From the NCBI GenBank assembly GCA_001778985.1, contig MFIU01000004.1, positions 67,067 through 131,066 of the forward strand: 64,000 nucleotides of DNA, written 5' to 3'. Position numbers and translations under genes: made by a program. Below, piece after piece: positions 1 through 60,916 of this stretch. The notes below the pieces were generated by a model. It worked only from the letters and a program-made list of their open reading frames with translations, was not told where the DNA came from and did no database searches. Source of the DNA: Candidatus Giovannonibacteria bacterium RIFOXYD1_FULL_48_21. GTDB taxonomy: Bacteria; Patescibacteriota; Minisyncoccia; JACPKW01; UBA11713. Positions within the stretch are counted from its first letter, which is position 1. Each line of letters starts with the position of its first letter.

Positions 1-244
1 GCTGCGATAAAGCGCTTGCGGCGGCAGACTTTTCGGCCGCAGATGAATACGGGTTTCTCAAAACATTTGAAGCTCTGCTGGCCGCTTTTTTACCTGTTGT
101 TTTAGGATGTGCCATTGAATTACTTTTAAACTAATAAAATAGCGGTTACGACTATTCCGCAATTCAAGTTTATCGCATGCCGCCATAGATAGGCTGTGTA
201 TAACTGCTCGGGTTTTGCTCGGTTGAATATGATATACTGACTAT

Positions 245-24820: not shown

Positions 24821-25022
24821 GCAGTGTTTCTTTTGCACTTCCAATATCCAGGCGCTAGACTACAAAGACACTGAAAACTTAAAGCGTTTTCTAGACCCTC
24901 TATCCCGCATCCTTCCCAAAAGGCGAAGCGGGCTTTGCGCCGGGCACCAAAGAGAATTCGGCCGCAACGTAAAGAAAGCGCGCGCCCTGGGGCTCCTGCC
25001 TTATCGGCCGCTCGCCAAATAA
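24804..25022 (+). CDS. rpsR: 30S ribosomal protein S18
   Basis: 'DYKDTENLKRFL...ILPKRRSGLCAGHQREFGRNVKKARALGLLPY' matches the S18 core. Confidence 0.85.
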   Translation: MKSLSKQCFFCTSNIQALDYKDTENLKRFLDPLSRILPKRRSGLCAGHQREFGRNVKKARALGLLPYRPLAK

Positions 25023-25585: not shown

Positions 25586-25592
25586 AAACCAA

Positions 25593-25616
25593 CCCCGCCG
25601 TTAGGCGGGGTTGGCT
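25593..25616 (-). terminator. hairpin terminator CCAACCCCGCC-gtta-GGCGGGGTTGG downstream of the large surface-protein gene
   Basis: A perfect 10-11 bp GC stem with a 4-nt loop. Confidence 0.5.
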
Positions 25617-25637
25617 AGTTCACAAGGATAAACTATT

Positions 25638-29399: not shown

Positions 29400-29705
29400 A
29401 ATTAATTTGCTCTTATTTTCTAATAATCACTAATAATAGCTAACGACTTTTTTAATTTGTCAATAGAAACATTTTCATTCTTTCGGCCGTTAATATTTAG
29501 TTATCAAAGTTCTAACAAAGCGACAAACCCCGTATCTTCTACGGTATTTGCTTAATTGTGTCTTCCCTTATTATAGGGATTCATCTTAAAGGCAACAAGT
29601 AGATTAGTAAAGCCTTTGTGGATAACTAGAAAGTCCTTAGAAATAAGGTCTTTTTAGTATTTAAATACACTTGTTTGCCTTGAGGTGAAAAACTATAATT
29701 GAACC

Positions 29706-30719
29706 ATGGGGAACTTTAAATCAAATCTTACCATTATTGGAGTTGTTGTTATTGTCTTTCTTTCGGGCTTAGTTTTGTGGTACTCGCCTCCAGATTTTTT
29801 GAAGCCGGAGCCGGTTAAAGTTCAGTATCAAGTTGCTACCGGAGGAGCCAATGAATTGCGGGCGCAAGTGATTAAAAAATATGGCCTTGACAAGAAGCAT
29901 GGCGTTGAGCTTGAAATAATTTCCACGGACCCCGGAGAATTGGAAAGGAGAATCTCCAAAGGCGAGTCTTATCTGGCCGAGGTCTCCCCTTTCACCGCCT
30001 TGACGGCAAAGCAAAATAATGTCGAGCTTCGCATTATAAGCCCGGCGGTTTACTTTAATTACTACCTGCTCGTTTCAAGCAATTCCAAGATTACCTCTCT
30101 GGAGGAGTTGAAAGGGGGAAAAATCGGGACACAGCCAAAAGTCACTGCCGCTTACAGCGCCTTGGCCATAGTGCTTAAGTCCGCGGGTTTTGACATTGAG
30201 AAAGATTTCAGCGTCCTTTTCGGAAATATCCCCCAAACCGTCGCCGCTGTGGAAAAAGGAGAAGCGGACGCGGCTTCAGCCTCGTATCCGAGCGCGGCCG
30301 CTATCATTGCCGGCGGGAAATTCAGAAGCATCGCGTCTTTGGGAGACCTTTGGAGCAAAAATGAGGACGGGCTTTCCCTGCCATTCGTCGTGCTGGCCGC
30401 GAATGGCGATTGGTTCGAAGAAAACCGAGAAACGGCGCGGCGAGTGGTGGAAACTATTCTGGAAGGCGGGCGCTTTATTCAAGAACAGCCGCAAGTACTT
30501 TCCGAACTTACTGATTATCTCAACAAATACAACTACAATACTCCGCAAATCACGGCGCTGCTGGAAGCGCATATACCAAGCATGCTGCCCGCGAGTTACG
30601 GAGAGAAAGAAGTAAGAGCCTTTGAAAGATTCTTCGCGCGGGCGAAGCAATTAAAAATCATCCCTCCCGACGCTCCGATTGAAAGTTATCTGGTGAAACC
30701 GGAGGATTTAGGAATTTAG
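29706..30719 (+). CDS. ABC transporter substrate-binding protein, NMT1/THI5 (SsuA/TauA-like) family, orphan
   Basis: An N-terminal TM anchor and a periplasmic-binding fold with NMT1-like sequence features. No permease or ATPase neighbours. Confidence 0.5.
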   Translation: MGNFKSNLTIIGVVVIVFLSGLVLWYSPPDFLKPEPVKVQYQVATGGANELRAQVIKKYGLDKKHGVELEIISTDPGELERRISKGESYLAEVSPFTALTAKQNNVELRIISPAVYFNYYLLVSSNSKITSLEELKGGKIGTQPKVTAAYSALAIVLKSAGFDIEKDFSVLFGNIPQTVAAVEKGEADAASASYPSAAAIIAGGKFRSIASLGDLWSKNEDGLSLPFVVLAANGDWFEENRETARRVVETILEGGRFIQEQPQVLSELTDYLNKYNYNTPQITALLEAHIPSMLPASYGEKEVRAFERFFARAKQLKIIPPDAPIESYLVKPEDLGI

Positions 30720-40076: not shown

Positions 40077-40112
40077 TTGATTTTACGTCGGCAGCACACT
40101 ATCATAACCTAT

Positions 40113-40367
40113 ATGAACTCTTATACCTACCGAATAATAATAGAGCCGGATGAGAACAACACTTTTCACGCCTATGTTCCGGCGCTTCCTGGTTGCCATA
40201 CTTGGGGAGAAAGTTTTGAGGAAGCGCGTGGGAATATCCGCGATGCCATTGACGTTTACATCAGAAGCCTCACAAAAGACGGCGAGAAAATTCCTATAGA
40301 TCGCGGCGTAGAGATCGTGGAAACTATCTCTGCTTCCCGGCACAGAAAATCTTTTTCCCGTGTCTAA
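40113..40367 (+). CDS. hicB: HicB-family antitoxin
   Basis: 'YRIIIEPDENNTFHAYVPALPGCHTWGESFEEARGNIRDAIDVYI' (UPF0150/HicB RNase-H-like fold). Confidence 0.7.
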   Translation: MNSYTYRIIIEPDENNTFHAYVPALPGCHTWGESFEEARGNIRDAIDVYIRSLTKDGEKIPIDRGVEIVETISASRHRKSFSRV

Positions 40368-40593
40368 ACTTCCCCAGATTAAAGACCGGGAGTTGATCCG
40401 AGCGTTAAAGAAACTCGGATTTTTTGAGCATCCGGAACGCGGCAGTTCTCATTTGGTCTTTGCACATCAAGACGGAAGACGCGCCACCGTGTCTCGCCAT
40501 CCAGGCAAAAACATTCCCAGAGGCACTCTCCGCGCCATCATGCGCGACATCAATATTTCTCCTCAAGAATTCACCAGACTTTTGAAGCAGTAA
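40360..40593 (+). CDS. hicA: HicA-family toxin (mRNA interferase)
   Basis: 'ALKKLGFFEHPERGSSHLVFAHQDGRRATVSRHPGKNIPRGTLRAIMRDI'. Overlaps hicB by 8 nt. Confidence 0.7.
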   Translation: MSKLPQIKDRELIRALKKLGFFEHPERGSSHLVFAHQDGRRATVSRHPGKNIPRGTLRAIMRDINISPQEFTRLLKQ

Positions 40594-49321: not shown

Positions 49322-49343
49322 AACCCCGCATTCTGCGGGGTTG
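49322..49343. terminator. hairpin AACCCCGCA-ttct-GCGGGGTT shared by the HTH gene (+) and rnpB (-)
   Basis: A perfect 9 bp GC-rich stem. Confidence 0.55.
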
Positions 49344-49347
49344 ATTT

Positions 49348-49753
49348 AGATACGCCTATAAGCCGAATTCTGTCCTCCCGCTGAAAGCGGGATGTATGGT
49401 CATTTATCTCAGCCTCGCCTTACGGCGGGGCCTGAAGCGGCACTTCCCGCCTTCCTTTGAAAGTTTCAATGGTTGGCGGGACACGGCCTTGCACCAGGCA
49501 GGGTTTTCAACTCCGGCGTCTTGCGAGGTCGGAGCGTGCGCTCTTACCGCACGATTTCACCTTTGCTCTCTTGCCCTTTAGGGGAAAGAGGGCCGTATAT
49601 TTTCTGTTGCACTATCCGTCCCTGAAAGATTCCTCTTTCAAGGCGTGGGTGTTACCCACTGCCCACTTCTCATTTTTCAATGAGGGTGTTCGGACTTTCC
49701 TCCCCGCCTACGATTATTTTTAAATGTTGGCGGGGTGACCATCCGGCGTATCT
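49348..49753 (-). ncRNA. rnpB: RNase P RNA, bacterial type A
   Basis: Minus-strand matches to the conserved blocks GGCGGGGAGGAAAGTCCGAACACC, AGTGCAACAGAAAAT...CGGCC, AGGTGAAATCGTGCGGTAAGAGCGCACGC and GGACAGAATTCGGCTTATAGG (P4). P1 forms by pairing AGATACGCC (5') with GGCGTATCT (3'). Confidence 0.9.
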
Positions 49754-49854
49754 TGCAGTAATTATAGTCGAGAAATAATTTTTGTCAACTATTTATTTTA
49801 TTTTAAAAAATCCGGCGGATACCCAAGGGCATCCGCCGTTTAGAGAAACATTCA

Positions 49855-51037: not shown

Positions 51038-52150
51038 CTAGAGTTTTTTTGAGCGGCGCAGAAACGCCGGAATAGAATCCCACTCGGAATTCTCCGCGGC
51101 TGGCTCCAAAAGTTCCTCGCCAGGCTTTGGTCCGGCGGACTCGCGGCGCAAAGTTTGAATTTCGGTCGGGAAAAGAGAAATACTGCGGCCAAAACCGTTC
51201 GGAAAACCAGAGGCAATCACGGTTACTTTCAGCTGGCCTTTCCTAAGCCGGTCATCCTGCACCGCGCCAAAAATAATTTTAGCCTCTTTGTCAATATTTT
51301 CGGTGATAAGTTTGGCGGCTTCCTGCACTTCCCACATGGAAAGGTCTTCCCGTCCGGAAACCGTGAATAAAACTCCTTTGGCTCCGTCAGCCGAAACCTC
51401 GAGGAGCGGCGAATGGATCGCGAGGCGGGCCGCTTCCTGGGCGCGGTTTCGGCCGGAAGCCAAGCCTATTCCAATGATGGCCGAGCCGGAGTTTAAGAGA
51501 ACCGTTCTTACGTCCGCGAAATCCACGTTAATAATGCCCGGGGTAATTATCAAATCCGCAATCCCTTCCACCGCTTGTCTCAAAACTTCGTCGCACATCG
51601 CAAAAGCCGCCAGAAAAGGAGTGTCCCGCTCCACCGTGTTCAGCAAGCGGTCATTGGGAATCACAATCATGGCGTCAACAGCTTTGCGAAGCCTCACCAG
51701 ACCGTCCTCGGCAATTCTTTTGCGAATCTCGCCTTCAAAAGCGAAAGGTTTGGTGACGATGGCCACGGTGAGCGCGCCTTGATTTTTGGCAAGCTCGGCC
51801 ACGATCGGCCCCCCGCCCGTGCCGGTGCCGCCGCCGAAACCGCAGGTGACGAAAACTAAATCCGCGCCGCGGATAAATTCTTCAATCTCGCGCTTCGACT
51901 CTTCCGCGGACATGCGGCCGAGCTCCGGGTTCATGCCCGCGCCGAGCCCACGGGTTACGTTTTTCCCGATGTGAAGTTTTTTTGGAGCAAGTGAATTATG
52001 CAAATCTTGGGCGTCGGTGTTGATGGCGATGAAATCCACTCCGCGCACCCTGGAGCGAATCATATGGTCGACCGCGTTCTGTCCCGACCCCCCTACCCCG
52101 ATTACTTTCAGCCGGGCCGCGGTTTCAAATTCTGGCTTAACCTGAGGCAT
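51038..52150 (-). CDS. ftsZ: cell division GTPase FtsZ
   Basis: 'GGGTGTGGGPIVAE' tubulin signature, 370 aa. Confidence 0.95.
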   Translation of the reverse strand: MPQVKPEFETAARLKVIGVGGSGQNAVDHMIRSRVRGVDFIAINTDAQDLHNSLAPKKLHIGKNVTRGLGAGMNPELGRMSAEESKREIEEFIRGADLVFVTCGFGGGTGTGGGPIVAELAKNQGALTVAIVTKPFAFEGEIRKRIAEDGLVRLRKAVDAMIVIPNDRLLNTVERDTPFLAAFAMCDEVLRQAVEGIADLIITPGIINVDFADVRTVLLNSGSAIIGIGLASGRNRAQEAARLAIHSPLLEVSADGAKGVLFTVSGREDLSMWEVQEAAKLITENIDKEAKIIFGAVQDDRLRKGQLKVTVIASGFPNGFGRSISLFPTEIQTLRRESAGPKPGEELLEPAAENSEWDSIPAFLRRSKKL

Positions 52151-52184
52151 AATAATCCAAGCCTAGCCGTTCACCTAAAGCCCG

Positions 52185-52988
52185 TCAAGCGGCGACATGT
52201 TTTTGAGCTTTGAAATCCGGCTCCCCTGAAACTCGCTTATGCCATTCGCTTTCATAGAATTCTTTAAGTATCGCTCCTGCCTCTCCCGCGTTTCTGCGCA
52301 CTTCAGGATTTTCTAAATGCTCGGGTAAAACTATGAAAGTTGGCTGGGGCGCTTCATACATACCGACATAGGGAATCCGCGGGTAGACTATCTTTTCTGC
52401 TCCGCCTCCTTCGGCTTCCCATTTCGCGAAATCATAGATTGCAATATCAGGATAGCCCTTATTGAGGCCTTGCAGAATCGACATCAAATCGAAACCCTGC
52501 GGTATTTTCCCATCTCTCTGGGCCTCCTCTAATCCTCGAACGGTGTCTTCGGTCCAGCGCATCAAACCTTCGAAGCCGGCTTTACTTTCGAACTTTGCCA
52601 CTCCTGGAATTTTGGTGGTTTTGCTTTTTCGCTCGTAACCTTTGAGATTCTCGACAGTAAGCATCTGAATTTTCTTGTCTTCGCTCTTCTCCACCTCTCC
52701 AACAAAACCAAGCTCAATCCCTTTCTCTTTAAGCAATGAATTGATTCTGGCTACTGACTCTTTCAGCTCTTCTTCGTCAGTAAAGGAGTGCCAAATCTCG
52801 GTATTGGGCTTAAAGCCGGCCATGGTTAAAACAACGCCCGGTTCAACAAAGTGGGCTCCAAATTCTCGGGGGATTTTTTCGTAAAGTTCCTCTGAGAGTC
52901 TGGCTACTTCCTTCCCAGAAAAAACCTCGGGAATTGCCTCGATTGATTCTGATCTAACTTCGGTAGGTTGGGGCAATTTCTCTGACAT
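52185..52988 (-). CDS. hypothetical protein
   Basis: 267 aa ORF, co-directional with ftsZ and 34 nt upstream of it. Confidence 0.45.
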   Translation of the reverse strand: MSEKLPQPTEVRSESIEAIPEVFSGKEVARLSEELYEKIPREFGAHFVEPGVVLTMAGFKPNTEIWHSFTDEEELKESVARINSLLKEKGIELGFVGEVEKSEDKKIQMLTVENLKGYERKSKTTKIPGVAKFESKAGFEGLMRWTEDTVRGLEEAQRDGKIPQGFDLMSILQGLNKGYPDIAIYDFAKWEAEGGGAEKIVYPRIPYVGMYEAPQPTFIVLPEHLENPEVRRNAGEAGAILKEFYESEWHKRVSGEPDFKAQKHVAA

Positions 52989-52989
52989 T

Positions 52990-53400
52990 TTAATTTAAAA
53001 TGGCCAAATCTTCTTTGATTCCTTTTTTGAGCGCTTCCAGTTCAGAGGCAGGGACAGAAAGAAGCGAGGCGAAAAATTCAACTCGCTCCGCATTTTCCAA
53101 ATGCGCATTTGCCAGAAGTTCTGCTACCTCCCTTCTTTTTCCCTCAAAAATGTAAACCTCAAAATTTCTCTTCCTCAACTCTTCCACCACAGCCCAGAAA
53201 TAATTTTCATTCCCCGGACCGATCTCTTCCTCGACCAAGAGGTCGTCTTCGTGCCTTAAAATCGAAATACGTTCCTCGATTAAAGTTTTTACCAAATCAT
53301 TCTTAGAAATATCCTCATCTTTAGAAATTTTCCCGAGGTACTCGCCGTCTTTTTTGAAGATGTAAGCGCTCTCCATTTTAGTATTCTTTTTCTCTAACAC
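52990..53400 (-). CDS. hypothetical protein
   Basis: 136 aa ORF. Confidence 0.4.
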   Translation of the reverse strand: MLEKKNTKMESAYIFKKDGEYLGKISKDEDISKNDLVKTLIEERISILRHEDDLLVEEEIGPGNENYFWAVVEELRKRNFEVYIFEGKRREVAELLANAHLENAERVEFFASLLSVPASELEALKKGIKEDLAILN

Positions 53401-54415
53401 CCTCGGGCTTGCTTTTTTGATTTTGCCGGCGTTCCAGTTCCGGAATATTGTATGCTGTTTCTTTGTCTAAATAATCTCTCACCAGCTCGCGGTCTTGACG
53501 CCCAAGCAAGATAGCACTCGCGGAGTTTGCCCTAACAATTTCCGCCCAGTATTCCGAGGCTTTCATTAATAATTCCTTCTTTTTATCCTCGTTGCGAATG
53601 GATTCAACATATCCCGAATAATATCTGTCTTCCGATTTAACTCTCTCCAATGTCCTGTGAAGCAAATCTACGCGCTCCGGCATTGAGCGGCGGCGATTCT
53701 TCCAGTCATTCGCGTGAGCGATTTCATGCCTGAAGCTTAAGGCAAAACTGCTTTCTTGCCAGCCGTCGGGATGCTTAAAAAAAGATAATACTGTTTCGTT
53801 GCCGGCACTACTATAAGAAGCTTGGCCAACGACATTGAGGTCAGATTTCAGCCCGTAATCTTTCCTGACTTTTCCAATTTGCTCTTCTCTATCAACGAAA
53901 TTGATTTCGTTGATACTTTCTATCCAAACATGCGGAAGTGCATCTAAAATAAAATTTATCGACCTGGGATTGATGCCCATTTGTTTTGCTCTCTCGGGTG
54001 ATATATTCGGGTAATTCAAAGTCTTGTCGTGGAAGTGTTCTTTTATTTTTTCACTTTCTCCTGCAATTCCAAAATTTCTGTCTAAGTTAGCGGCTCCAAT
54101 TTTCTCTTCGACTTTCTTTGCCTTTGCAACGGTTTGGAAAAGTTCTTTTCTTTCTTTTCCATCCATTTCCCCCTCCTTTGCGGCTTTATCGGCGCGTTTA
54201 ACGTATTCCGAAACTTTTATATCCTGGTGCAGCATTTCTTCCACGTTTTTCTTCGAAAACCCTACTTGTTCAGGCGCCGCCAGCACGCCTGAAAATGCCA
54301 TGGGCAGGACTGCAGCAGAAACAGCTTTTTTAAATCTCTCGCGGATGGACAAAACCGCCTTCTCTCTATCCTCGCTTCGAGGTTCTGGTTTTTCAAAAGA
54401 AAATTTTTCCGACAT
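53378..54415 (-). CDS. putative zinc metallopeptidase (HExxH)
   Basis: 'FALSFRHEIAHANDWKNRR' HEIAH motif and an N-terminal hydrophobic signal-like segment. Confidence 0.4.
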   Translation of the reverse strand: MSEKFSFEKPEPRSEDREKAVLSIRERFKKAVSAAVLPMAFSGVLAAPEQVGFSKKNVEEMLHQDIKVSEYVKRADKAAKEGEMDGKERKELFQTVAKAKKVEEKIGAANLDRNFGIAGESEKIKEHFHDKTLNYPNISPERAKQMGINPRSINFILDALPHVWIESINEINFVDREEQIGKVRKDYGLKSDLNVVGQASYSSAGNETVLSFFKHPDGWQESSFALSFRHEIAHANDWKNRRRSMPERVDLLHRTLERVKSEDRYYSGYVESIRNEDKKKELLMKASEYWAEIVRANSASAILLGRQDRELVRDYLDKETAYNIPELERRQNQKSKPEGVREKEY

Positions 54416-54420
54416 TGAAA

Positions 54421-54495
54421 TTAAATTCCTTTATGCCTCCTCCTAATCTCCTCCTCCACTTCTTCTCTGGGGCGGGTGAACTTGGAGCGGGAGTA
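54421..54495 (-). repeat. peptide-conserving 3'-end repeat, copy A (other copies at 55669-55770 and 56943-57016)
   Basis: Core TGCCTCCTCCT(A/T)ATCTCCTCCTCNACTTCTTCTCTGGGGCGG plus a flanking ...TTGGAGCGG. On the minus strand all three copies encode SRSK(F/Y)xRPREEVEEEIRRRH(K/H)(G/A). The nucleotide differences fall mostly on synonymous positions (GTG/GTT/GTC Val and ATT/ATA Ile). Confidence 0.7.
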
Positions 54496-54502
54496 TATAA
54501 AA

Positions 54503-54754
54503 TCATTTATAAATATCTTTTCGGTGGCCAACTTTCAAAATTATAATGCGGTCGCGTTCGACATCAAAAAGTGCCCGATAGTCCCCAATATGAAAACGCC
54601 GCTCGCCGAGGCGAGGGTCTTTCAGTTCTTCGGAGAATTTAAGCGGATCTATCGCGGCGGTGTAAAAATCGAATTTGGTTATGATCCGCCTTTGAACGAT
54701 TCTTGGGAGCTTTTTAAGATCTTTGAGAGCAGCAGGTTTAAAGAAATACTTCAT
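54503..54754 (-). CDS. relE: RelE/ParE-family type II toxin
   Basis: 'RFHIGDYRALFDVERDRIIILKVGHRKDIY' is the RelE/ParE C-terminal signature. Confidence 0.7.
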   Translation of the reverse strand: MKYFFKPAALKDLKKLPRIVQRRIITKFDFYTAAIDPLKFSEELKDPRLGERRFHIGDYRALFDVERDRIIILKVGHRKDIYK

Positions 54755-54975
54755 AACCGAAGAAGTCTCTTTACTTCAGCTGCGGAGTAAAGTTTTTTCT
54801 CTTTTCGGGCTTTTATAATTTCTTTTGGAAGAATGTTTGAATTTCTCATCTCCGTATCTTCCATCAAATCCTCCAGCTTTCTCCAATCCTCCAAGGGTAT
54901 CACTACCACCGGCTCGCCGCGAAAGCGAGTCTTCTCAATTTTTTTATCAATAGTAGCGAGGTTGCGATGGGCCAT
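54751..54975 (-). CDS. type II antitoxin (RelB/Phd-like), partner of relE
   Basis: A 74 aa ORF overlapping relE by 4 nt, with 'PVVVIPLEDWRKLEDL'. Confidence 0.55.
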   Translation of the reverse strand: MAHRNLATIDKKIEKTRFRGEPVVVIPLEDWRKLEDLMEDTEMRNSNILPKEIIKARKEKKLYSAAEVKRLLRL

Positions 54976-55073
54976 GTTCCAACTCTATTCTTCTCCTGCC
55001 CAAAAGTCAAAAATCAAAATGCGCGACCCTGAGGATCGTGCGACAAGAATGAACCCTTAATTTCTGAATATTT

Positions 55074-55628
55074 CTACCTCGTTTCCCTATATTTTTCCAT
55101 TATTTCTTCGGCGCTCTTAGAAATTTCGAGATCACCTTCGGCTGCTGCGGCTTGACCAAAACTTTTTATTCCTTCCTGTAAGCCCTCCGTTTCCGTATAC
55201 GCAAGCCAATTTTTAGGGTCTTTCTCTAAAGCTGATTGAGAATATCCCAAGAGCTCAGATGCAGTATCAATCCATTCTTTTGGGGTAAAAATTCCTTTTG
55301 GAATAGAAATAGATCCTCCGCCGAATGAAATAGAAGATTCCCATTCATCTTTTCGAGTTTCCTTGTTCCAAACCTGCTTATTAATTTGATATACGCCAGG
55401 ATTTGGTATCGCTACATGACGCTCCTTGCTAGCTCTTTGCATTACCTCCTTTAATTTTTCTCGCTTCTTCGTCAAAGCTAGATAACTGAACTGGGCATTT
55501 TCTCTTGCCTCCGCCATTCTAGTCTCATGATGCATCGCCTCCAATTCCTCTAGAGTCTTGTTAGGCTTATTCTCCAACTCATAGAGCCTTCTATTAGGAT
55601 CCTCAGAATTTGGTGTTTCAAATCCCAT
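55074..55628 (-). CDS. hypothetical protein
   Basis: 184 aa, Glu/Lys-rich. Confidence 0.4.
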   Translation of the reverse strand: MGFETPNSEDPNRRLYELENKPNKTLEELEAMHHETRMAEARENAQFSYLALTKKREKLKEVMQRASKERHVAIPNPGVYQINKQVWNKETRKDEWESSISFGGGSISIPKGIFTPKEWIDTASELLGYSQSALEKDPKNWLAYTETEGLQEGIKSFGQAAAAEGDLEISKSAEEIMEKYRETR

Positions 55629-55761
55629 ATTTTATGTTTATTAGTTTAATAAAATCCTCCTGCCTAAATTATATTGCTTTTTCTGGAGTCGCGCCAGCGT
55701 GGTGCCTCCTCCTAATCTCCTCCTCAACTTCTTCTCTGGGGCGGCCGTATTTGGAGCGGTC

Positions 55762-55989
55762 TCATAAATGTTTAGAAAATTCTCCGGGTGTCACTTCGAT
55801 CTCCCGCAGAATCTGCCGCAGGAGCCCGCGGCCGATATCTTCTCCGCCGTGCCTAGGAACCAAAGTGGTTCTGCCATCCGGATGTTTAAAAAAGATATGA
55901 GAACCAACTTGACGAAAACCTCTAAAGCCGAACTTCTCTAAAACGCGCATAACATCGCGCGCCTTTAGCATCGGCAAGCGGCCTTTCAT
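55762..55989 (-). CDS. hicA: HicA-family toxin
   Basis: 'VLEKFGFRGFRQVGSHIFFKHPDGRTTLVPRHGGEDIGRGLLRQIL'. Confidence 0.7.
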   Translation of the reverse strand: MKGRLPMLKARDVMRVLEKFGFRGFRQVGSHIFFKHPDGRTTLVPRHGGEDIGRGLLRQILREIEVTPGEFSKHL

Positions 55990-55993
55990 AAAT

Positions 55994-56248
55994 TTAAACG
56001 CTTACCAACTCCACTCCCACAAAGGATGGTTCATAAGCGAAGAGTTGAATTTTCTTTCGATATTGCGGGTCGGTCTTGGCGACAGAAAGGCAAAGCTTGA
56101 TTGCCTCGCGAACGCGCCTCCTTAGCTCTTCCAGGTCTTTGGCTTGGGTATGACAGCCCGGCAAAGCCGGAACAGAAGCCACAAAGTAGCCGTCTTCATC
56201 GCGTTCAATGAGGACTTTAAATTCTTTTGGTGATATTTCTCTAGCCAT
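55994..56248 (-). CDS. hicB: HicB-family antitoxin
   Basis: 'LIERDEDGYFVASVPALPGCHTQAKDLEELRRRVREAI'. Confidence 0.7.
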   Translation of the reverse strand: MAREISPKEFKVLIERDEDGYFVASVPALPGCHTQAKDLEELRRRVREAIKLCLSVAKTDPQYRKKIQLFAYEPSFVGVELVSV

Positions 56249-56328
56249 ATTTAGAGCCTATCACGTCCAAAGTCAAAAATCAAAATGCGCGACCAGTAAG
56301 CCGCGCATTTCTTGAAAATAAATCCAGC

Positions 56329-56904
56329 CTAAAAATCAAACTCTTTTTTCTGTTTCTCTTGTGCTTCTTTTTCCAACCTTTCCCTCTTTTTGGTTATGGC
56401 CTTCCAGATTTCTTCTAACGCCTCGCTGTCTTGTTGGTCATTCCTATTAAACTTGTTAAAGTTTAATTTCAGAAGATCTTCTGTCACCTTATTTCTTAAT
56501 TTATCTTTTAATTCAAAATTATAGCCTTGCGCGGGCTGCGGAACATTTTTATAAGCAGAAATTTTTGATGCATCCAGCTTTACTTTCGCAACATTTCCGT
56601 CTCTATCTACATAATAGAAGTCATTCAGTAACCCAAAAGAGCTATCATATTTTCCTTTCATGCCTTCCAATTTCTTTTTTAAGTCCCCCGACATTTCTGG
56701 GTCCTCTAACGAAAGAAAGAACTGTTTATTCATTTTTATATACGTCCCCAAGTCGGCCACCATCTCTCCCTTTTCAAGACGCTCTCGAAGATTCTCGCGT
56801 TCCTCTTTTGTGCCAATAATAACAGCGGCGTTTTCTTCCCAGCCTTCTTTATTGATATCGGCTTTGGCTTGTTCAAATTCAGAATCTGGTTGTTCTTGGC
56901 CCAT
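56329..56904 (-). CDS. hypothetical protein
   Basis: 191 aa, acidic/Lys-rich. Confidence 0.4.
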   Translation of the reverse strand: MGQEQPDSEFEQAKADINKEGWEENAAVIIGTKEERENLRERLEKGEMVADLGTYIKMNKQFFLSLEDPEMSGDLKKKLEGMKGKYDSSFGLLNDFYYVDRDGNVAKVKLDASKISAYKNVPQPAQGYNFELKDKLRNKVTEDLLKLNFNKFNRNDQQDSEALEEIWKAITKKRERLEKEAQEKQKKEFDF

Positions 56905-56942
56905 AACCGTATCTTACAATATCGAACAAAGGATGCAAATGT

Positions 56943-59333
56943 TTATCCACCTTTATGCCTCCTCCTTATCTCCTCCTCGACTTCTTCTCTGGGGCGGCTG
57001 TACTTTGAACGGGAGAGCTGCTTAATATAATCGGCCATCTGGGGGTTGCCGGTTTCGGGCGGAATGGTTTTTATATTGAAAGGTTTTGAAGTCTGCCCGT
57101 CAATCAATAATTTTAGATAGGCGTTATAGTTATCGATATTCAGCAAGTCGTGGGCAGAGAATACGGGTTGAAACTGCTTCTCCATATACTCGCCGTCGTC
57201 CGAGCCGATTCTGAAGGAACAAATAGAACCGACGTTTCCAAAGACCGCTTTCTGAATCTCTTCCTCGAGCTGTCCGATGAACTGGTGAGTTAAAATGAGG
57301 TTCAATTTATACTTTCTCGCTTCGGAAAGTATGGTCGCGATGGACTTAGTTGTGACGTTTTGGAACTCATCGATATAAAGGTAAAAATCGGGACGTTGGG
57401 ATTCGTCAACGTTTACTCTGGATAGCGCGGCCATCAAAATTTTACCAACCATAATTAGCCCGAGGAGCGACGAGTTAAGCTCGCCTAGGCGCCCCTTGGA
57501 AAGATTCAACAGCAAAATCTTTTTATTATCCATCACCTCGCGGATATTGAAGGCGGATTTCTCCTGCGCGATGATTGGGCGCATTATTTCGTTTGCAAGA
57601 AATGTGTCGAATTTCGAGACCACATAAGGCACCATGTTCTGCAAAGCGGCCTCGCCGCCGGCTTTCTCGGCAATCTGTTTCCAGAAGGTCTCAACCACGA
57701 TATTTTTCGAGCGGGAAAGTTTGTAGTCGCGAAAGGATTTATCCGCCAAAACGCGCTCAATCTCCAAAAGGGTGTTCCCTGACTCCGGATCGTCCATCAC
57801 CAGCAAAGCGGCATTCCTGAAATACTGCTCGAACATCGGGCCTCCGGCGACTGACATATTGAAAAGCTTGTTGAAGATTTCCAAAAGCTCGTTCACTATC
57901 ATGGTTTTCTGCTCCGGACGCGCCGCATCATACTCCAGCATGTTAAGCCCCATGGGATATTGAACGTCTCCGGGGTCAAAATAAATCACGTCCTCGGCGC
58001 GCTCGCGCGGGACGAGCGCTAAAATTTTTTCGATAAGCTCTCCGTGCGGGTCAATCACCGCGACTCCCTCGCCCGCTCGTATATCCTGAATAATCATGTT
58101 CTGCATTAAGACTGATTTTCCGGTTCCGGTCTGGCCGATGGTATAAAAATGCCTGCGCCGGTCGTCTTTTTTAATCCTTACTTCCTGGGAAGTTCCGCGA
58201 AAAGCGCTCCTGCCGACTAAAATTCCCTCCTTTGGAAGATTTACGGGCGGGGCCGCCTCTCGGGCTTTTAGCATCCGCACCTGGGGTGCGGCTTTCTTGG
58301 AATACGGAAAATGATAAATGCTTGCGATTTCCTCCACGTTGAGCGGTATCGCCGTATCTTCATCAAAAAACCTGAAAGAAAAATCTTCATTTAACTTGCG
58401 AAGCCTACTTCCAAAAACGTTCCGGATTTTGAATGAATTTCCCTCGGGACTCGAGAATTGATAAAAACCGGCTTCAAATTCTTTCATAATTCGATCGGTT
58501 TCTGCGTCTGATCCGGCAGAAACAATGAGGCGAACATTCGCGTCGAAAATCATCTTGCCTGCTTTCTCCTCCAGTATCTTTACAAGCTCCTCATCGTAGA
58601 CTACGGGTTTGTTTTTTTCCTCGGGCCTCTGGCTTTTCGGTTTTTTGAAAATTTCAATTGTTTCTTCCGCCAAACTTTTTTCTCCCAGAACCTCTTTTCT
58701 TGATTTCCCCTGCTTTAACTTCTCCGTAACGCTATGTATCGACTTTTCGAGCTTTTCTGCTGAAGGCCGCAGTACAAGCTGTAGGGCGGCTCCTTCGTCG
58801 AACTCGTCAATCTTCGAGAAAGCAGAGGTTATAGTTTCAACAGGATCTGACTCTATTTTTTGATAAGTTTTCAAAGGCAGGAATTTATTTTTTTCAAGTT
58901 CCAGAATCGCACCGCGGGATATTCCGTCCGGATTAAAAATGTTGTAATCGTTTACTTTGTCTATTTTGGCTTCCGGAAATGCGCCATGCAGCTGGCCCTC
59001 GACGAGTTTTTCGAATTTTCGTGGTGCGGCCACATAAAAAAATATCTCCGCTCCGTTATTGTGCGCCGCGAGCTCCAGGGCAAAACTTTTATTCTTCATT
59101 CCGCCAAAGCCCATCAAAAACTTTTCCATCTGGGCGATGAAATTTTTTCTGGCTTCATTTGGGTTTTCCTTACCTTCCTCGCGGCTTTCCGGAACGCTCA
59201 CCAAGAAAAGCTGAAGCGAAAGGCTCGAAGATATGGCGCTTGTTCTCTTGTAGCGTAAATAAAAAAAGAGAATTACTAAAATGGGGACGAGGAGAACAAA
59301 GAAAGTCGTGAAAATAAAGGCGCCGTCATTCAT
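56943..59333 (-). CDS. membrane-anchored FtsK/TraG/VirD4-superfamily P-loop ATPase (type IV coupling-protein-like)
   Basis: An N-terminal TM helix, Walker A 'YTIGQTGTGKSVLM', Walker B 'FYLYIDEFQNV' about 275 aa downstream (T4CP-like spacing) and 'DPHGE'. Its last ~22 aa are encoded by repeat copy C. Confidence 0.6.
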   Translation of the reverse strand: MNDGAFIFTTFFVLLVPILVILFFYLRYKRTSAISSSLSLQLFLVSVPESREEGKENPNEARKNFIAQMEKFLMGFGGMKNKSFALELAAHNNGAEIFFYVAAPRKFEKLVEGQLHGAFPEAKIDKVNDYNIFNPDGISRGAILELEKNKFLPLKTYQKIESDPVETITSAFSKIDEFDEGAALQLVLRPSAEKLEKSIHSVTEKLKQGKSRKEVLGEKSLAEETIEIFKKPKSQRPEEKNKPVVYDEELVKILEEKAGKMIFDANVRLIVSAGSDAETDRIMKEFEAGFYQFSSPEGNSFKIRNVFGSRLRKLNEDFSFRFFDEDTAIPLNVEEIASIYHFPYSKKAAPQVRMLKAREAAPPVNLPKEGILVGRSAFRGTSQEVRIKKDDRRRHFYTIGQTGTGKSVLMQNMIIQDIRAGEGVAVIDPHGELIEKILALVPRERAEDVIYFDPGDVQYPMGLNMLEYDAARPEQKTMIVNELLEIFNKLFNMSVAGGPMFEQYFRNAALLVMDDPESGNTLLEIERVLADKSFRDYKLSRSKNIVVETFWKQIAEKAGGEAALQNMVPYVVSKFDTFLANEIMRPIIAQEKSAFNIREVMDNKKILLLNLSKGRLGELNSSLLGLIMVGKILMAALSRVNVDESQRPDFYLYIDEFQNVTTKSIATILSEARKYKLNLILTHQFIGQLEEEIQKAVFGNVGSICSFRIGSDDGEYMEKQFQPVFSAHDLLNIDNYNAYLKLLIDGQTSKPFNIKTIPPETGNPQMADYIKQLSRSKYSRPREEVEEEIRRRHKGG

Positions 59334-59728
59334 TTTATTTTCCTGGCCTCCAGAAGCTTTTGATAATAATAATCGGCTAAAGTGTCGTGAAATTCGTCCA
59401 AGAGATGCGGATTTTTGAGAGAATTTGCCACTTTGAGGGCCGAGGATAAATTTTTTTCAAAAGCCAGATTGATAAGTTCTTCGATTATATATTTGTGCTC
59501 TTTTTCTTTGAGCTCGGCGGCTTTGTCCTTGCTCGTCTCGTCCGGAATCGTTACTGGCGGCAAAATCGGCGGAGAAGGCTTCTCGCCGGCTCCGGCTTCG
59601 CGGAAAATCTCCCCAATCATTTCCCGCTCCTCCCTCGGCTCTTTCCCCTCTCCTGAAAGCTCTTTTTTCTTCGTCTCGAGCTGACTCTCGAGCCACTTTA
59701 TCTCTTCACGAATCTGCTCCTGCGGCAT
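59330..59728 (-). CDS. hypothetical protein
   Basis: 132 aa, overlaps the ATPase start by 4 nt. Confidence 0.4.
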   Translation of the reverse strand: MPQEQIREEIKWLESQLETKKKELSGEGKEPREEREMIGEIFREAGAGEKPSPPILPPVTIPDETSKDKAAELKEKEHKYIIEELINLAFEKNLSSALKVANSLKNPHLLDEFHDTLADYYYQKLLEARKIK

Positions 59729-59755
59729 GGTTTTATTCTAACTTCTTTAAGAATT

Positions 59756-60916
59756 CTATGGAATCAGCGAGCGCAGCCATGAAGAGAGTTTCTGGCGAAG
59801 GGCTGAAGGTTTTTTGAAAGCAGGGCTGGTTTCTTGGTCGAGCGCCAAAAGGGCCGCACCCAAGGCAGTGTGCCAGAGAGAGTCCTGAAGTTTGTGCCCG
59901 GAATCAAGCTCGCGGCATCCTCCGAGCTCGGCCGGAAGCCGGAGAGCGTTTCTGGAAAATTCTTCAAGGCCCGGAATTTTGGCCGAGCCTCCCGACAAAA
60001 CCACCCCGCCCGGCAAAAGTCCGGCGCGTCCTATTTTTTTCAGATGCGTCTGGACCAGCTCAAACATATCCTCGAGCCTGGCCTCCACGATGTTTTGAAA
60101 CTTTTTTTTGGACGTTTGAGAATCATCCGGAAGTTTCGCGGAAATTTTTATCTCCTCGGCTTTCTCCAGCGGAACTTGAAAACCAAGCGCGATATCGTTC
60201 GTGATATGCGCTCCGCCAAATGGAAAAATCGCCAGAGAATACGGAAGGTTCTCCTCAAAAACCGCGAGGTTCAAGGTCTCGGCTCCAATATCCATAATTA
60301 AAGCGCCGGCTTCGCGCTGTCTGGAGGCGAGCAAAGCTCTGGCTGTGGCGAGAGGCGCCGGAACAACGTCATCAATCGCAACTCCCGCCTCCTCCACAGC
60401 GCTAATCGCTTCGGCGAGCGGTTTTAGGAGCGAGGTTACGAATAAAACTTCTGCCTCCAAATGCTCTCCCTTGAGCCCGACTGGGTCTTTCAGGGAAAGC
60501 TCTAAATCCACGGCATAGTTCAAGCCGAAAAATTCCATCACCCCGCGGTTTTGGAGTTCGCGGGAAGAGGGCCGGGCCTGGGCCAGCACCCGGTCCACGT
60601 CGTAGGGACTGACTTCTCCAGAGGCTTGGGAGATGGCCACGCGGGAGCGCACTTTCTGAAAGCCGAGAGCCGGCGAGCCGAAAACCACGTAGGCATGCTT
60701 GAAAGGAATCCCGGAAAAGCGCCCCACCTCTTTCACGACTTCTTTTATTTTTTTGGATAGAAGGCCTGGGGTCTGAACCAAACCGCGCCTAACTCCCTCG
60801 GCCGGGACCAGGGCCGCGCCCAAAATATGCAGCCCGGTTTCTTGCGGCCTGCGCTCCGCACTCAAAGCTTTAAGGCTCGCCGAACCGATATCCAAGATAT
60901 GAACGATATTCCTCAT
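59756..60916 (-). CDS. ftsA: cell division protein FtsA
   Basis: Actin-like ATPase 'MRNIVHILDIGSASLKAL...'. The start is taken at the ATG at 60916, which overlaps the ybeY stop (ATGA). Confidence 0.85.
   Translation of the reverse strand: MRNIVHILDIGSASLKALSAERRPQETGLHILGAALVPAEGVRRGLVQTPGLLSKKIKEVVKEVGRFSGIPFKHAYVVFGSPALGFQKVRSRVAISQASGEVSPYDVDRVLAQARPSSRELQNRGVMEFFGLNYAVDLELSLKDPVGLKGEHLEAEVLFVTSLLKPLAEAISAVEEAGVAIDDVVPAPLATARALLASRQREAGALIMDIGAETLNLAVFEENLPYSLAIFPFGGAHITNDIALGFQVPLEKAEEIKISAKLPDDSQTSKKKFQNIVEARLEDMFELVQTHLKKIGRAGLLPGGVVLSGGSAKIPGLEEFSRNALRLPAELGGCRELDSGHKLQDSLWHTALGAALLALDQETSPAFKKPSALRQKLSSWLRSLIP

What the first reader, a model, noticed from the sequence alone, without database searches (positions are those of the whole stretch)
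52185..59728. ftsA and ftsZ are separated by a ~7.6 kb co-directional island carrying two toxin-antitoxin pairs and a coupling-protein-like ATPase
ybeY-ftsA (60.9 kb) and ftsZ (51.0-52.2 kb) are on the same strand but are not adjacent, as they are in the usual division cluster. Eleven co-oriented genes intervene: three hypotheticals, an HExxH protein, relB-relE, a 184 aa ORF, hicB-hicA, a 191 aa ORF, a 796 aa TM-anchored FtsK/TraG/VirD4-superfamily ATPase and a 132 aa ORF. The gaps to ftsA (27 nt) and ftsZ (34 nt) are small, so ftsZ transcription may read through the island. The toxin-antitoxin (TA) modules and the internal repeat (next finding) suggest a mobile or addiction cassette array lodged inside the division operon. 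Alternatively, the membrane ATPase could be a lineage-specific division or DNA-translocation component.
Basis: partly seen in the sequence, partly recalled or inferred. Interest (0 to 1): 0.62.

Follow-up and report, generated by a model that had tools for sequence, protein, structure and literature searches.

The report
Relocating ATPase island splitting ftsA and ftsZ
In one small branch of the ultra-small groundwater bacteria Candidatus Giovannonibacteria, a conserved membrane ATPase operon with a fast-changing tail of toxin-antitoxin cassettes sits between the division genes ftsA and ftsZ, while ftsZ keeps its own promoter.

Summary
Eleven co-oriented genes (52185-59728, minus strand) lie between a genuine ftsA and ftsZ, with gaps of 27 and 34 nt.

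It is a lineage-restricted insertion. About 65 related Paceibacteria genomes, including two Giovannonibacteria, have ftsA directly followed by ftsZ. Only one Giovannonibacteria subclade carries the island.

The island has three layers:
- **ATPase pair.** A 132-aa protein plus a 796-aa VirB4/VirD4-like ATPase. More distant relatives keep this pair in one fixed place, PMT_2 | pair | GtrA-dnaX. In the window's clade it sits at ftsA|ftsZ, inside the S10 ribosomal operon before rpsS, or upstream of dnaG.
- **Cassette units.** Two units of about 1.26 kb, each a charged small ORF, a hairpin-plus-promoter element and a TA pair (hicBA, relBE). Each unit ends in a roughly 66-nt orphan copy of the ATPase gene's 3' end.
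- **Narrow-range genes.** An HExxH protein, a 136-aa ORF and a 267-aa ORF.

Orphan 3' ends recur in four genomes, always right after a toxin gene. A 95-99% identical tract between two relatives starts in the ATPase 3' end, so this is a recombination junction.

ftsZ keeps a conserved TTGAC-N17-TAGNCT promoter. No integrase, relaxase or attC-like site was found. It is not an integron or an ICE, and nothing ties the ATPase to division.

The parts
59756..60916 (-). ftsA, the true ortholog; its start overlaps the ybeY end
   Evidence: Pfam FtsA, SHS2_FTSA and PilM_2. It is the last gene of the hisS-HIT-S21-yqeY-ybeY-ftsA string conserved in about 65 relatives.
59330..59728 (-). o132, the conserved small helical partner of the ATPase. 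Its stop overlaps the ATPase start (ATGA).
   Evidence: Found directly upstream of the ATPase in every locus examined. It has an invariant NPHxxDEFHDxLA motif. No Pfam, NCBIfam, PHROG or PADLOC hit and no fold match.
56943..59333 (-). 796-aa membrane-anchored P-loop ATPase: one N-terminal TM helix, a DUF8128 domain, then a VirB4/VirD4 (TrwB)-like NTPase domain. Walker A is GQTGTGKS at 400-407 and Walker B is DEF at 655-657.
   Evidence: Pfam. PF26449 on its homologs. AF2 model with pLDDT 84. Foldseek: TrwB TM 0.64-0.67 over about 420 columns, and full-length VirB4/TrwK at E 1e-14.
56950..57015 (-). R1: the last 22 codons of the ATPase gene (..SRSKYSRPREEVEEEIRRRHKGG*), the reference copy of the 66-nt repeat
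56329..56904 (-). o191, a charged small ORF that follows R1; cassette 1
   Evidence: No family hits. Weak similarity to the 122-aa ORF of L115.
56250..56311 (-). Hairpin terminator (13-bp stem) plus a TTGACT promoter element upstream of hicB. It contains the exact 26-nt repeat at 56269-56294.
   Evidence: Terminator scan. RNA fold z = -3.8. Repeat. An equivalent element precedes every TA pair in relatives.
55762..56248 (-). hicB-hicA type II toxin-antitoxin pair (antitoxin first); cassette 1
   Evidence: Pfam HicB_lk_antitox 1e-7 and HicA_toxin 7.5e-21. 75% nucleotide identity to the hicBA-R unit of L092.
55669..55762 (-). R2: orphan copy of the ATPase 3' end (DRSKYGRPREEVEEEIRRRHH...*), starting at the hicA stop codon
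55074..55628 (-). o184, a charged small ORF that follows R2; cassette 2
   Evidence: Weak similarity to the L092 183-aa ORF and to the 952-aa protein of L081.
54976..55062 (-). Second hairpin plus TTGACT-N17-TAGAGT promoter element upstream of the relB-like gene. It contains the exact 26-nt repeat at 55003-55028.
54503..54975 (-). relB-like antitoxin (74 aa) and RelE toxin (83 aa) with a 4-nt overlap; cassette 2
   Evidence: ParE_toxin/RelE Pfam 1.4e-12. PDB RelE-type hits 6e-11 to 5e-4. The antitoxin is assigned by position and by weak Phd/RelB hits on a homolog; it has no direct hit.
54418..54501 (-). R3: orphan copy of the ATPase 3' end (SRSKFTRPREEVEEEIRRRHKGI*), 9 nt after the relE stop
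53378..54415 (-). o345, an HExxH (HEIAH) protein with an N-terminal hydrophobic segment. It is shared with the L081 and L111 islands.
   Evidence: Only 2 close clusters. 490 remote representatives of its C-terminal domain, with no Pfam hit in 10 sampled.
52990..53400 (-). o136, the partner ORF of o345, conserved alongside it
52185..52988 (-). o267, an ORF found only in this genome's version of the island
   Evidence: Only a sub-threshold AbiJ_NTD3 hit.
52160..52188 (-). ftsZ promoter: -35 TTGACG (52183-52188, overlapping the o267 stop), a 17-nt spacer, and -10 TAGGCT (52160-52165)
   Evidence: TTGAC and TA..CTT are invariant in six genomes with or without the island. This is a sequence inference, not transcript data.
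51038..52150 (-). ftsZ
   Evidence: Pfam Tubulin and FtsZ_C. 76-83% identical to other Giovannonibacteria FtsZ.

Best explanation
The 7.6-kb block is a composite, lineage-restricted genomic island.

**Core.** The core is the o132 plus DUF8128/VirB4-VirD4-like ATPase operon. This is a vertically inherited Patescibacteria gene pair whose ancestral home is PMT_2 | pair | GtrA-dnaX. In the ancestor of one Giovannonibacteria subclade the pair, with a tail of accessory genes, moved into the spacer between the ftsA stop codon and the ftsZ promoter. In sister lineages the same unit lies before rpsS or before dnaG.

**Effect on neighbouring genes (inferred).** Because it landed upstream of a self-sufficient ftsZ promoter, division-gene expression is left intact. 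o132 and the ATPase are probably now read from the ftsA transcript.

**Cassette hot spot.** The ATPase gene's 3' end is a recombination hot spot. DNA from co-occurring relatives is probably taken up by transformation. It then recombines using the conserved last ~70 nt of the ATPase gene as a one-sided homology anchor, in a Campbell-type or homology-facilitated illegitimate manner. Each event adds a cassette of a charged small ORF, a hairpin-plus-promoter element and a type II TA pair. Each event also pushes a copy of the 3' end downstream as an orphan.

**Role of the TA pairs (inferred).** The self-promoted TA pairs act as addiction modules. They protect the direct-repeat-flanked cassettes from deletion.

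**What is shown and what is inferred.** Shown: the insertion and its phylogenetic distribution, the ancestral locus, the orphan 3' ends and their position after toxin genes, the recent recombination tract, and the conserved promoters. Inferred: the recombination mechanism, the co-transcription, the stabilising role of the TAs, and the ATPase's biochemical role as a membrane-anchored hexameric translocase of the T4SS ATPase clade with an unknown substrate.
For: **Insertion and distribution.**
- ftsA and ftsZ are adjacent in about 65 of 80 relatives, including Giovannonibacteria L005 and L006 with gaps of 52 and 94 nt.
- The island is present only in the window, L081, L003, L089/L115, L098 and L102/L111.
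- A seven-protein tree puts island-less L006 inside the island-bearing clade with 100% bootstrap.

**Ancestral and derived locations.**
- The ancestral locus serS..PMT_2 x2 | o13x-ATPase | GtrA-dnaX is conserved in nine loci at 52-68% ATPase identity.
- Derived positions are rplB..MscS | module | rpsS and upstream of dnaG-rpoD.
- In the ATPase tree the ftsA|ftsZ and rpsS locations are interleaved.

**Orphan 3' ends.**
- There are six in-frame orphan 3' ends in four genomes.
- Each sits 0-20 nt after a TA toxin stop, and all begin near the codons LSRSKF.
- None occurs in genomes that lack TAs in the tail.

**Recent exchange.** Between L115 (ftsA|ftsZ site) and L121 (rpsS site), identity is 75-82% over o130 and the ATPase. 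It jumps to 95-99% from the last ~50 nt of the ATPase through the 122-aa ORF, then drops to 60-70%.

**Regulatory elements.**
- A conserved hairpin plus TTGACTTT-N17-TATAGT element precedes every TA pair.
- The ftsZ promoter is conserved.

**ATPase family.** There are more than 6400 homologs carrying DUF8128 plus T4CP domains. The fold is closest to TrwB and VirB4. Patescibacteria carry thousands of VirD4-like T4CP genes that are not linked to virB4 (PMC12102498).
Against: - The rest of the source genome could not be read. The island ATPase could therefore be a second copy rather than the relocated ortholog.
- No strain-level variation in cassette number was seen among 24 contigs carrying the identical ATPase. 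Ongoing cassette turnover in this population is not shown.
- The identical left boundary of all orphans, across three toxin families, fits a site-specific process at least as well as homologous or illegitimate recombination. No recombinase was found.
- L081 and L111 carry relBE in the tail without an orphan.
- Both trees are neighbour-joining. The ATPase tree was not bootstrapped.
- The promoter and terminator calls are sequence-based only.
Confidence: 0.6

Rival explanations
1. The block is the decayed remnant of an integrative conjugative or mobilisable element, or an integrated plasmid. On this reading the coupling protein and the TA maintenance modules are its surviving genes, and it integrated between ftsA and ftsZ.
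For: - A T4CP-like ATPase plus two type II TA pairs is a typical ICE or plasmid gene set.
- GC3 is lower in the tail genes.
- The island is present or absent among close relatives.
- The module occupies at least four chromosomal positions.
Against: - No integrase, relaxase, VirB4 or replication gene lies in the island or within 10 kb either side in any of about 10 genomes.
- The ATPase and o132 have host-like GC3 of 0.55.
- The pair has a deeply conserved chromosomal neighbourhood in relatives at 52-68% identity.
- There are no terminal direct repeats. The one 19-nt inverted repeat at the ends is at chance level and is not conserved.
- Only six distant relatives (32-36% identity) occur in 2.9 million viral contigs.
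Confidence: 0.12
2. The ATPase and o132 are a lineage-specific divisome or chromosome-segregation component, an FtsK-like DNA pump recruited into the division cluster. On this reading its position between ftsA and ftsZ is functional.
For: - It is co-oriented with ftsA and only 27 nt downstream, with no terminator between them.
- It belongs to the FtsK/HerA/VirD4 superfamily of hexameric translocases.
- The arrangement is kept in five or more species-level genomes.
Against: - There is no FtsK_SpoIIIE or FtsK-gamma Pfam hit.
- The best structural matches are VirB4 and TrwB, not FtsK.
- The ancestral and most widespread neighbourhood is PMT_2/GtrA/dnaX.
- Equally close relatives carry the module before rpsS or dnaG.
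- A relative nested in the clade has ftsA-ftsZ adjacent.
- A T4CP homolog was reported as non-essential for epibiotic growth in Ca. S. epibionticum (PMC12102498).
Confidence: 0.08
3. The tail is an effector or secretion locus of the ATPase. The charged small ORFs and large proteins that follow each ATPase 3' end would be substrates, and the orphan 3' ends would mark displaced modules as at essC, rhs and cdiA loci. The TA pairs would then be incidental or act as immunity-like partners.
For: - Every genuine or orphan ATPase 3' end but one is followed by an ORF with no family hit, in most cases a small charged one: o191, o184, o345, and the 183-aa, 144-aa, 122-aa, 173-aa and 97-aa ORFs.
- The tails also carry Trypsin_2 proteases, an HExxH protein and 885-952-aa proteins.
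- There is weak similarity between the small ORFs and parts of the large proteins.
- The tract exchanged between L115 and L121 is exactly the ATPase 3' end plus the small ORF.
Against: - The similarities among small ORFs are weak and were obtained without composition correction on low-complexity sequence.
- No secretion channel genes are nearby.
- The orphans carry only the conserved last 22 codons, not a variable domain.
- The orphans are tied to TA toxin genes rather than to the ORFs that follow them.
Confidence: 0.12
4. The block is an integron-like array, with cassettes inserted by a site-specific recombinase at structured attC-like sites.
For: - The array consists of promoter-bearing TA cassettes separated by repeats, as in chromosomal superintegrons.
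- The orphan boundaries are constant.
Against: - No tyrosine recombinase lies in or near the array in any genome.
- The repeats are in-frame copies of a protein-coding 3' end.
- The repeats show no significant secondary structure, with z-scores of +1.7, +0.4 and -0.4.
Confidence: 0.03

Closest known systems
Orphan VirD4-like type IV coupling protein (T4CP) homologs of Patescibacteria (Microb Genom 2025, PMC12102498)
   Same: Chromosomal, membrane-anchored T4CP-like P-loop ATPase that is widespread in Patescibacteria and not linked to virB4 or a relaxase. Public annotation of its close homologs uses the same names.
   Different: The paper does not describe the o132 partner, the conserved PMT_2/GtrA/dnaX neighbourhood, relocation into ftsA|ftsZ, rpsS or dnaG positions, or the cassette tail with orphan 3' ends. 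In this analysis Foldseek ranks full-length VirB4/TrwK at least as high as TrwB.
Chromosomal TA cassette arrays such as Vibrio superintegrons (from own knowledge)
   Same: Tandem small cassettes, several of them self-promoted type II TA pairs, separated by repeats. The TAs plausibly stabilise a deletion-prone array.
   Different: There is no IntI integrase and no structured attC. The repeat is a copy of a neighbouring gene's coding 3' end. The array is only 2-4 cassettes long.
Displaced 'orphan' 3' modules downstream of rhs, cdiA and the T7SS ATPase gene essC (from own knowledge)
   Same: Partial 3' copies of a conserved upstream gene are stacked downstream, each followed by variable small genes. 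This implies serial replacement by recombination anchored in the conserved gene. In essC the anchor gene is also an FtsK/VirD4-superfamily ATPase.
   Different: The orphans here hold only the conserved C-terminal 22 codons and no variable toxin or specificity domain. The cargo is classical type II TA pairs plus unknown ORFs.
Genomic islands integrated at the 3' end of tRNA or protein genes with att direct repeats (from own knowledge)
   Same: Direct repeats derived from a gene's 3' end bound each inserted unit, and the gene stays intact.
   Different: There is no integrase. The units are only about 1.26 kb. The repeats are 82-91% identical and resemble the ATPase 3' ends of other species.
Canonical dcw cluster end (ftsQ-)ftsA-ftsZ
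   Same: ftsA and ftsZ are co-oriented and orthologous to the cluster genes. ftsZ has a promoter immediately upstream.
   Different: The two genes are 7.6-10.8 kb apart in this subclade.

Membership tests
Type IV coupling protein (VirD4/TrwB/TraD) | P-loop NTPase domain of the VirD4/TrwB type | tested here: met
   Pfam TrwB_AAD_bind 37.8 bits (cut-off 20.5) and T4SS-DNA_transf 34.5 bits (cut-off 20.1). Foldseek to TrwB gives target TM 0.64-0.67 and rmsd about 4.4 A over about 420 columns. Walker A and B are invariant in 32 homologs.
Type IV coupling protein (VirD4/TrwB/TraD) | Scores as a member of a curated T4CP equivalog (TraD, TraG, VirD4) | tested here: not met
   The best NCBIfam hit, SXT_TraD, scores 48.7 bits against a cut-off of 366. 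All others are far below their cut-offs.
Type IV coupling protein (VirD4/TrwB/TraD) | Genetic linkage to a relaxase and/or a VirB4-type T4SS | tested here: not met
   None lies within 10 kb either side in any locus. None was found among the window proteins scanned. The literature reports the same for most Patescibacteria T4CPs.
Type IV coupling protein (VirD4/TrwB/TraD) | N-terminal membrane anchor (two TM helices in TrwB/VirD4) directly followed by the NTPase domain | tested here: inconclusive
   There is one hydrophobic N-terminal helix (residues about 5-26; AF2 helix 3-38). It is followed by a roughly 300-residue alpha/beta DUF8128 domain that classical T4CPs lack. Full-length Foldseek alignments are to VirB4/TrwK.
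FtsK/SpoIIIE DNA translocase | FtsK_SpoIIIE motor domain, gamma (KOPS-reading) domain and a multi-pass N-terminal domain | tested here: not met
   No FtsK_SpoIIIE or FtsK_gamma hit at E <= 0.01. No FtsK structure appears among the top 50 fold matches. There is a single TM helix.
HicAB type II toxin-antitoxin | Adjacent small genes with HicA toxin and HicB antitoxin domains | tested here: met
   HicA_toxin 74.4 bits (cut-off 27) and HicB_lk_antitox 32.6 bits (cut-off 27), with a 4-nt gap between the genes. Toxicity and neutralisation are not testable here.
RelBE (RelE/ParE superfamily) type II toxin-antitoxin | RelE-fold toxin preceded by an overlapping small antitoxin gene | tested here: met
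   The toxin scores 48.5 bits against PF05016 (cut-off 23) and matches PDB RelE-type chains 2khe, 3g5o and 3bpq. The upstream 74-aa ORF overlaps it by 4 nt.
RelBE (RelE/ParE superfamily) type II toxin-antitoxin | Antitoxin recognisable as RelB/Phd family | tested here: inconclusive
   No Pfam, NCBIfam or PDB hit for the window protein. A homolog in L111 has weak PhdYeFM and RelB-like hits.
Integron | IntI tyrosine recombinase next to the array, and structured attC sites between cassettes | tested here: not met
   No recombinase in any locus. The repeats are not structured, with z-scores of +1.7, +0.4 and -0.4.
Integrative conjugative or mobilisable element | Integrase plus relaxase (and a T4SS for an ICE), with att repeats at the ends | tested here: not met
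   These genes are absent (calls above). There are no terminal direct repeats and only a chance-level 19-nt inverted repeat.

The most novel reading that the evidence does not exclude
The conserved 3' end of a T4SS-type ATPase gene may serve as the anchor of an integrase-free cassette system in Giovannonibacteria. Small modules (charged ORF, promoter-hairpin, TA pair) would be captured, stacked and swapped between co-occurring species by one-sided homologous recombination after DNA uptake. The ATPase operon with its cassette tail would behave as a relocating unit that settles immediately upstream of promoters of essential genes (ftsZ, rpsS, dnaG). A stronger version holds that the small ORFs are clients of the ATPase, which would make this an essC-like polymorphic locus in the Candidate Phyla Radiation.
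Probability: 0.2. Interest if true: 0.7.

Novelty: new variant of a known kind. Interest (0 to 1): 0.5.

Why it matters
Patescibacteria have tiny genomes, and their gene order around division and ribosomal genes is normally rigid. This locus shows that, within one family-level group, a core ATPase operon has become part of a relocating island. The island splits ftsA-ftsZ, and in sister lineages it splits the S10 ribosomal operon or sits before dnaG.

The locus also gives a concrete, sequence-defined junction, the last ~70 nt of the ATPase gene, at which recent inter-species recombination can be seen. That junction is a usable handle for studying gene flow and TA-mediated stabilisation in organisms that cannot yet be cultured.

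It adds context to the thousands of unexplained 'orphan' T4CP genes in this phylum: a constant partner protein, a constant ancestral neighbourhood and a variable tail.

It does not change the picture of cell division. ftsZ appears insulated by its own promoter.

Tried and rejected
- **Integron reading.** Rejected. No recombinase was found and the repeats are unstructured.
- **ICE or plasmid remnant.** No integrase, relaxase or VirB4 in any locus. The ATPase pair is deeply syntenic elsewhere.
- **Phage origin.** The PHROG hit is to an unknown-function family. Only six distant relatives were found in the IMG/VR viral contigs.
- **Defence system.** PADLOC gave only generic mad8 and HerA P-loop hits for the ATPase and nothing for the other ten proteins.
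- **19-nt inverted repeat bracketing the island (52250-52268 / 59745-59763).** It lies inside o267 and over the ftsA stop, contains a GAATTC palindrome, is about what chance gives in 12 kb, and is absent from relatives.
- **Composition test.** GC3 is lower in the tail, but the tetranucleotide distance is unremarkable (z at most 0.8) in a heterogeneous window.
- **Strain-level variation in cassette number.** None was seen in 24 contigs carrying the identical ATPase.
- **o132 function.** No family hit, and no fold match with E below 1.
- **o345 function.** It belongs to a 490-member HExxH domain family with no Pfam hit in ten sampled members.
- **Do o191 and o184 form one family?** Only weak, composition-prone similarities were found.
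- **Mapping accession names to assemblies, to test for a second ATPase copy.** The names were truncated.

Full report
**Observation**

The window comes from a Candidatus Giovannonibacteria genome (Paceibacteria, Patescibacteria). The 796-aa protein is 100% identical to a protein named for a Giovannonibacteria bin and is found on contigs up to 706 kb.

On the minus strand the gene order is ybeY, ftsA, o132, the 796-aa ATPase, o191, hicB-hicA, o184, a relB-like gene with relE, o345 (HExxH), o136, o267, ftsZ. There are eleven intervening genes.

The same layout was read in 24 contigs from independent assemblies, so it is not a chimera.

**Is it an insertion?**

I fetched ftsZ with 10 kb of flank on each side from 80 species-representative genomes and located the window's proteins in them.
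- About 65 loci, spanning many Paceibacteria groups, show (hisS-HIT-S21-yqeY-)ybeY-ftsA-ftsZ with ftsA directly before ftsZ, in full or as far as the contig reaches.
- These include two Giovannonibacteria, L005 and L006, with ftsA-ftsZ gaps of 52 and 94 nt.
- This also shows that the window's ftsA is the ortholog and not a paralog.
- The island occurs only in a subclade: the window, L001/L081, L003, L089/L115-118, L098 and L102/L111-114.
- A neighbour-joining tree of seven flanking housekeeping proteins (1645 columns, 100 bootstraps) places island-less L006 inside the island-bearing clade with 100% support. The island has therefore been lost or moved at least once, or gained more than once.

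**The core of the island**

In all island versions the constant part is o132 plus the ATPase, with overlapping stop and start codons.

The ATPase has the following features:
- more than 6400 homologs, at 52-80% identity among the best 120 listed, carrying PF26449 (DUF8128) plus T4CP domains;
- Pfam TrwB_AAD_bind and T4SS-DNA_transf hits above their cut-offs;
- only far sub-threshold hits to curated TraD and TraG equivalogs;
- no FtsK domain hit.

An AlphaFold model (pLDDT 84) shows one N-terminal membrane helix, an alpha/beta domain, and a P-loop domain. The P-loop domain superposes on TrwB with TM 0.64-0.67. Full-length alignments go to VirB4/TrwK at E 1e-14.

This matches the published observation that Patescibacteria carry 5,713 VirD4-like T4CP genes. 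Only 148 of them are near virB4, and their function is unknown (PMC12102498).

o132 is a small helical protein with an invariant NPHxxDEFHDxLA motif. It has no family or fold match.

**Ancestral home and relocation**

In relatives whose ATPase is 52-68% identical, the pair sits in one conserved neighbourhood: serS, two divergent PMT_2 glycosyltransferases, o13x-ATPase, GtrA, dnaX. This holds for nine loci. The pair is therefore a vertically inherited core gene pair.

In the clade at 72% identity or above it has left that context. It is found at three other places:
- between ftsA and ftsZ (the window's subclade);
- between rplB(-rplJ-rplL-185aa-MscS-like) and rpsS, inside the S10 operon (L092, L119-L122);
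- directly upstream of dnaG-rpoD. There it is followed by an 865-aa plus 98-aa gene pair like the 885-952-aa plus 99-aa pair of the ftsA|ftsZ islands. That match rests on size and order only, because no DNA was available.

In a neighbour-joining tree of the ATPase, the ftsA|ftsZ and rpsS locations are interleaved (not bootstrapped). Whether the island copy is the genome's only copy could not be checked.

**The tail**

Downstream of the ATPase, gene content differs in every species:
- window: o191, hicBA, o184, relBE, o345, o136, o267;
- L081: a 47-aa ORF, Trypsin_2, relBE, o339, o127, a 952-aa protein, a 99-aa protein;
- L111: a 144-aa ORF, Phd/ParE-type TA, o336, o128, 888-aa, 99-aa and 176-aa proteins;
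- L115: a 122-aa ORF, DUF433/DUF5615, a 56-aa ORF with PIN, Trypsin_2, 885-aa, 99-aa, 356-aa and 72-aa proteins;
- L121: a 122-aa ORF, two small pairs including a PIN, a relE pseudogene, a 173-aa ORF, hicBA;
- L092: a 183-aa ORF, relBE, hicBA, a 97-aa ORF.

**Repeats in the window**

The window's tail contains two units of 1269 and 1253 nt.

The 66-nt repeat is the last 22 codons of the ATPase gene (56950-57015). It recurs, still in frame, at two places:
- at the hicA stop codon (55697-55762; DRSKYGRPREEVEEEIRRRHH...);
- 9 nt after the relE stop (54428-54493; SRSKFTRPREEVEEEIRRRHKGI*).

The 26-nt exact repeat (55003-55028 and 56269-56294; expected 0) is the 3' arm of a hairpin, a T-run and a TTGACT -35 box. 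It lies just upstream of each antitoxin gene.

Relatives have the equivalent element (ACACGG-loop-CCGTGT, TTGACTTT, 17 nt, TATAGT, about 6 nt, ATG) before every TA pair, whatever its family.

**Orphan 3' ends are a rule**

A census of all loci found six orphans in four genomes: the window (2), the L115 type (1), L092 (1) and the L121 type (2).
- Each lies 0-20 nt after a toxin gene: hicA three times, relE twice (one a pseudogene) and DUF5615 once.
- All start near the codons LSRSKF.
- Genomes without TAs in the tail have none.
- The orphan sequences resemble the ATPase C-termini of other species (KF.RP or KYGRP types) more than that of their own genome.
- They have no significant secondary structure.

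**Recent exchange**

L115 (module at ftsA|ftsZ) and L121 (module before rpsS) share a 3.37-kb block. It starts 17 nt upstream of o130 and ends about 120 nt after the 122-aa ORF.

Identity along that block varies as follows:
- 75-82% over o130 and most of the ATPase;
- 84-88% in the last 500 nt of the ATPase;
- 95-99% from the last ~50 nt of the ATPase through the 122-aa ORF;
- 60-70% beyond that.

This is a recombination tract whose left edge lies in the ATPase 3' end.

**ftsZ expression**

A TTGAC-N17-TA(G/C)(G/T)CTT motif lies 9-30 nt upstream of the ftsZ start in all six Giovannonibacteria compared, with or without the island. In the window its -35 box (52183-52188) overlaps the o267 stop codon. 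The insertion point is thus between the ftsA stop and the ftsZ promoter. Read-through is possible but not needed.

**Explanation**

The best-supported reading is a composite island.
- A core ATPase operon was relocated into a permissive spacer upstream of a self-promoted essential gene.
- It carries a recombination hot spot at its 3' end. There, TA-containing cassettes are added and exchanged, each time displacing a copy of the 3' end.
- The TA pairs, each with its own promoter, plausibly hold the repeat-flanked cassettes in place.

The recombination mechanism (Campbell-type, homology-facilitated illegitimate, or an unknown site-specific enzyme) is inferred. The constant orphan boundary remains unexplained.

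The rivals are less well supported, for the reasons given in their entries. They are an ICE remnant, a divisome component, an effector locus and an integron.

**Novelty and score**

The parts are of known kinds: orphan T4CP genes of Patescibacteria, type II TAs, and genomic islands. The new points are these:
- the split of ftsA-ftsZ, and of the S10 operon in sister lineages;
- the constant o132 partner and the constant ancestral neighbourhood;
- the orphan 3' ends tied to TA cassettes;
- the visible recombination tract.

I rate it a new variant of a known kind, with interest 0.5.

Noticed in passing
window 245-1699 (+): A single 484-aa ORF combines a LexA DNA-binding domain, a Peptidase_S24 domain and an N6/N4 DNA methylase domain. 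This is an unusual LexA-methyltransferase fusion.
   Followed up: no
window 40077-40584 (+): A second hicB/hicA-like pair, 49% and 45% identical to the island's pair, lies elsewhere in the window.
   Followed up: no
window 49343-49754 (-): The RNase P RNA gene (Rfam RF00010, 189 bits) lies just downstream of the ftsZ-ASCH-BtpA genes.
   Followed up: no
window 1-2500 and 25001-30000: These are the strongest tetranucleotide outliers of the window (z 3.5 and up to 3.7). The second covers a 1253-aa protein with a PG_binding_1 domain at 25638-29399. The island itself is not an outlier.
   Followed up: no
window 52250-52268 and 59745-59763: A 19-nt inverted repeat (17 of 19 complementary) brackets almost the whole island. 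It lies inside o267 and over the ftsA stop, contains a GAATTC palindrome, and is not conserved in relatives. It is probably chance.
   Followed up: partly
L119 2554-9518; L121 1985-16379: In sister Giovannonibacteria, rplJ-rplL, a 185-aa ORF, an MscS-like channel gene and the ATPase module lie between rplB and rpsS, splitting the S10 ribosomal operon. Further TA pairs (HigB-like in L119 13087-13603; MazEF in L120 868-1424) also interrupt or flank the ribosomal-protein genes.
   Followed up: partly
L121 14456-14825: This intergenic stretch holds a frame-disrupted relE remnant (...GKFRFRISEYRIIFEVEKDTIFVLRVGHRKDIYK*) followed by an orphan ATPase 3' end. It looks like a decaying relBE-R cassette.
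   Followed up: partly
L111 8282-9528; L081 9017-9574: The ftsA-to-o130 junction is also variable. L111 has an 80-aa and a 331-aa ORF there, and L081 has a 185-aa ORF on the opposite strand. The window and L115 have only 27-31 nt.
   Followed up: no
window 56943-59333 (-), residues 40-340: Foldseek aligns the whole ATPase model, including the DUF8128 region, to VirB4/TrwK chains over about 880 columns (E 1e-14) but with a low TM of 0.3. DUF8128 may be related to the VirB4 N-terminal domain.
   Followed up: partly
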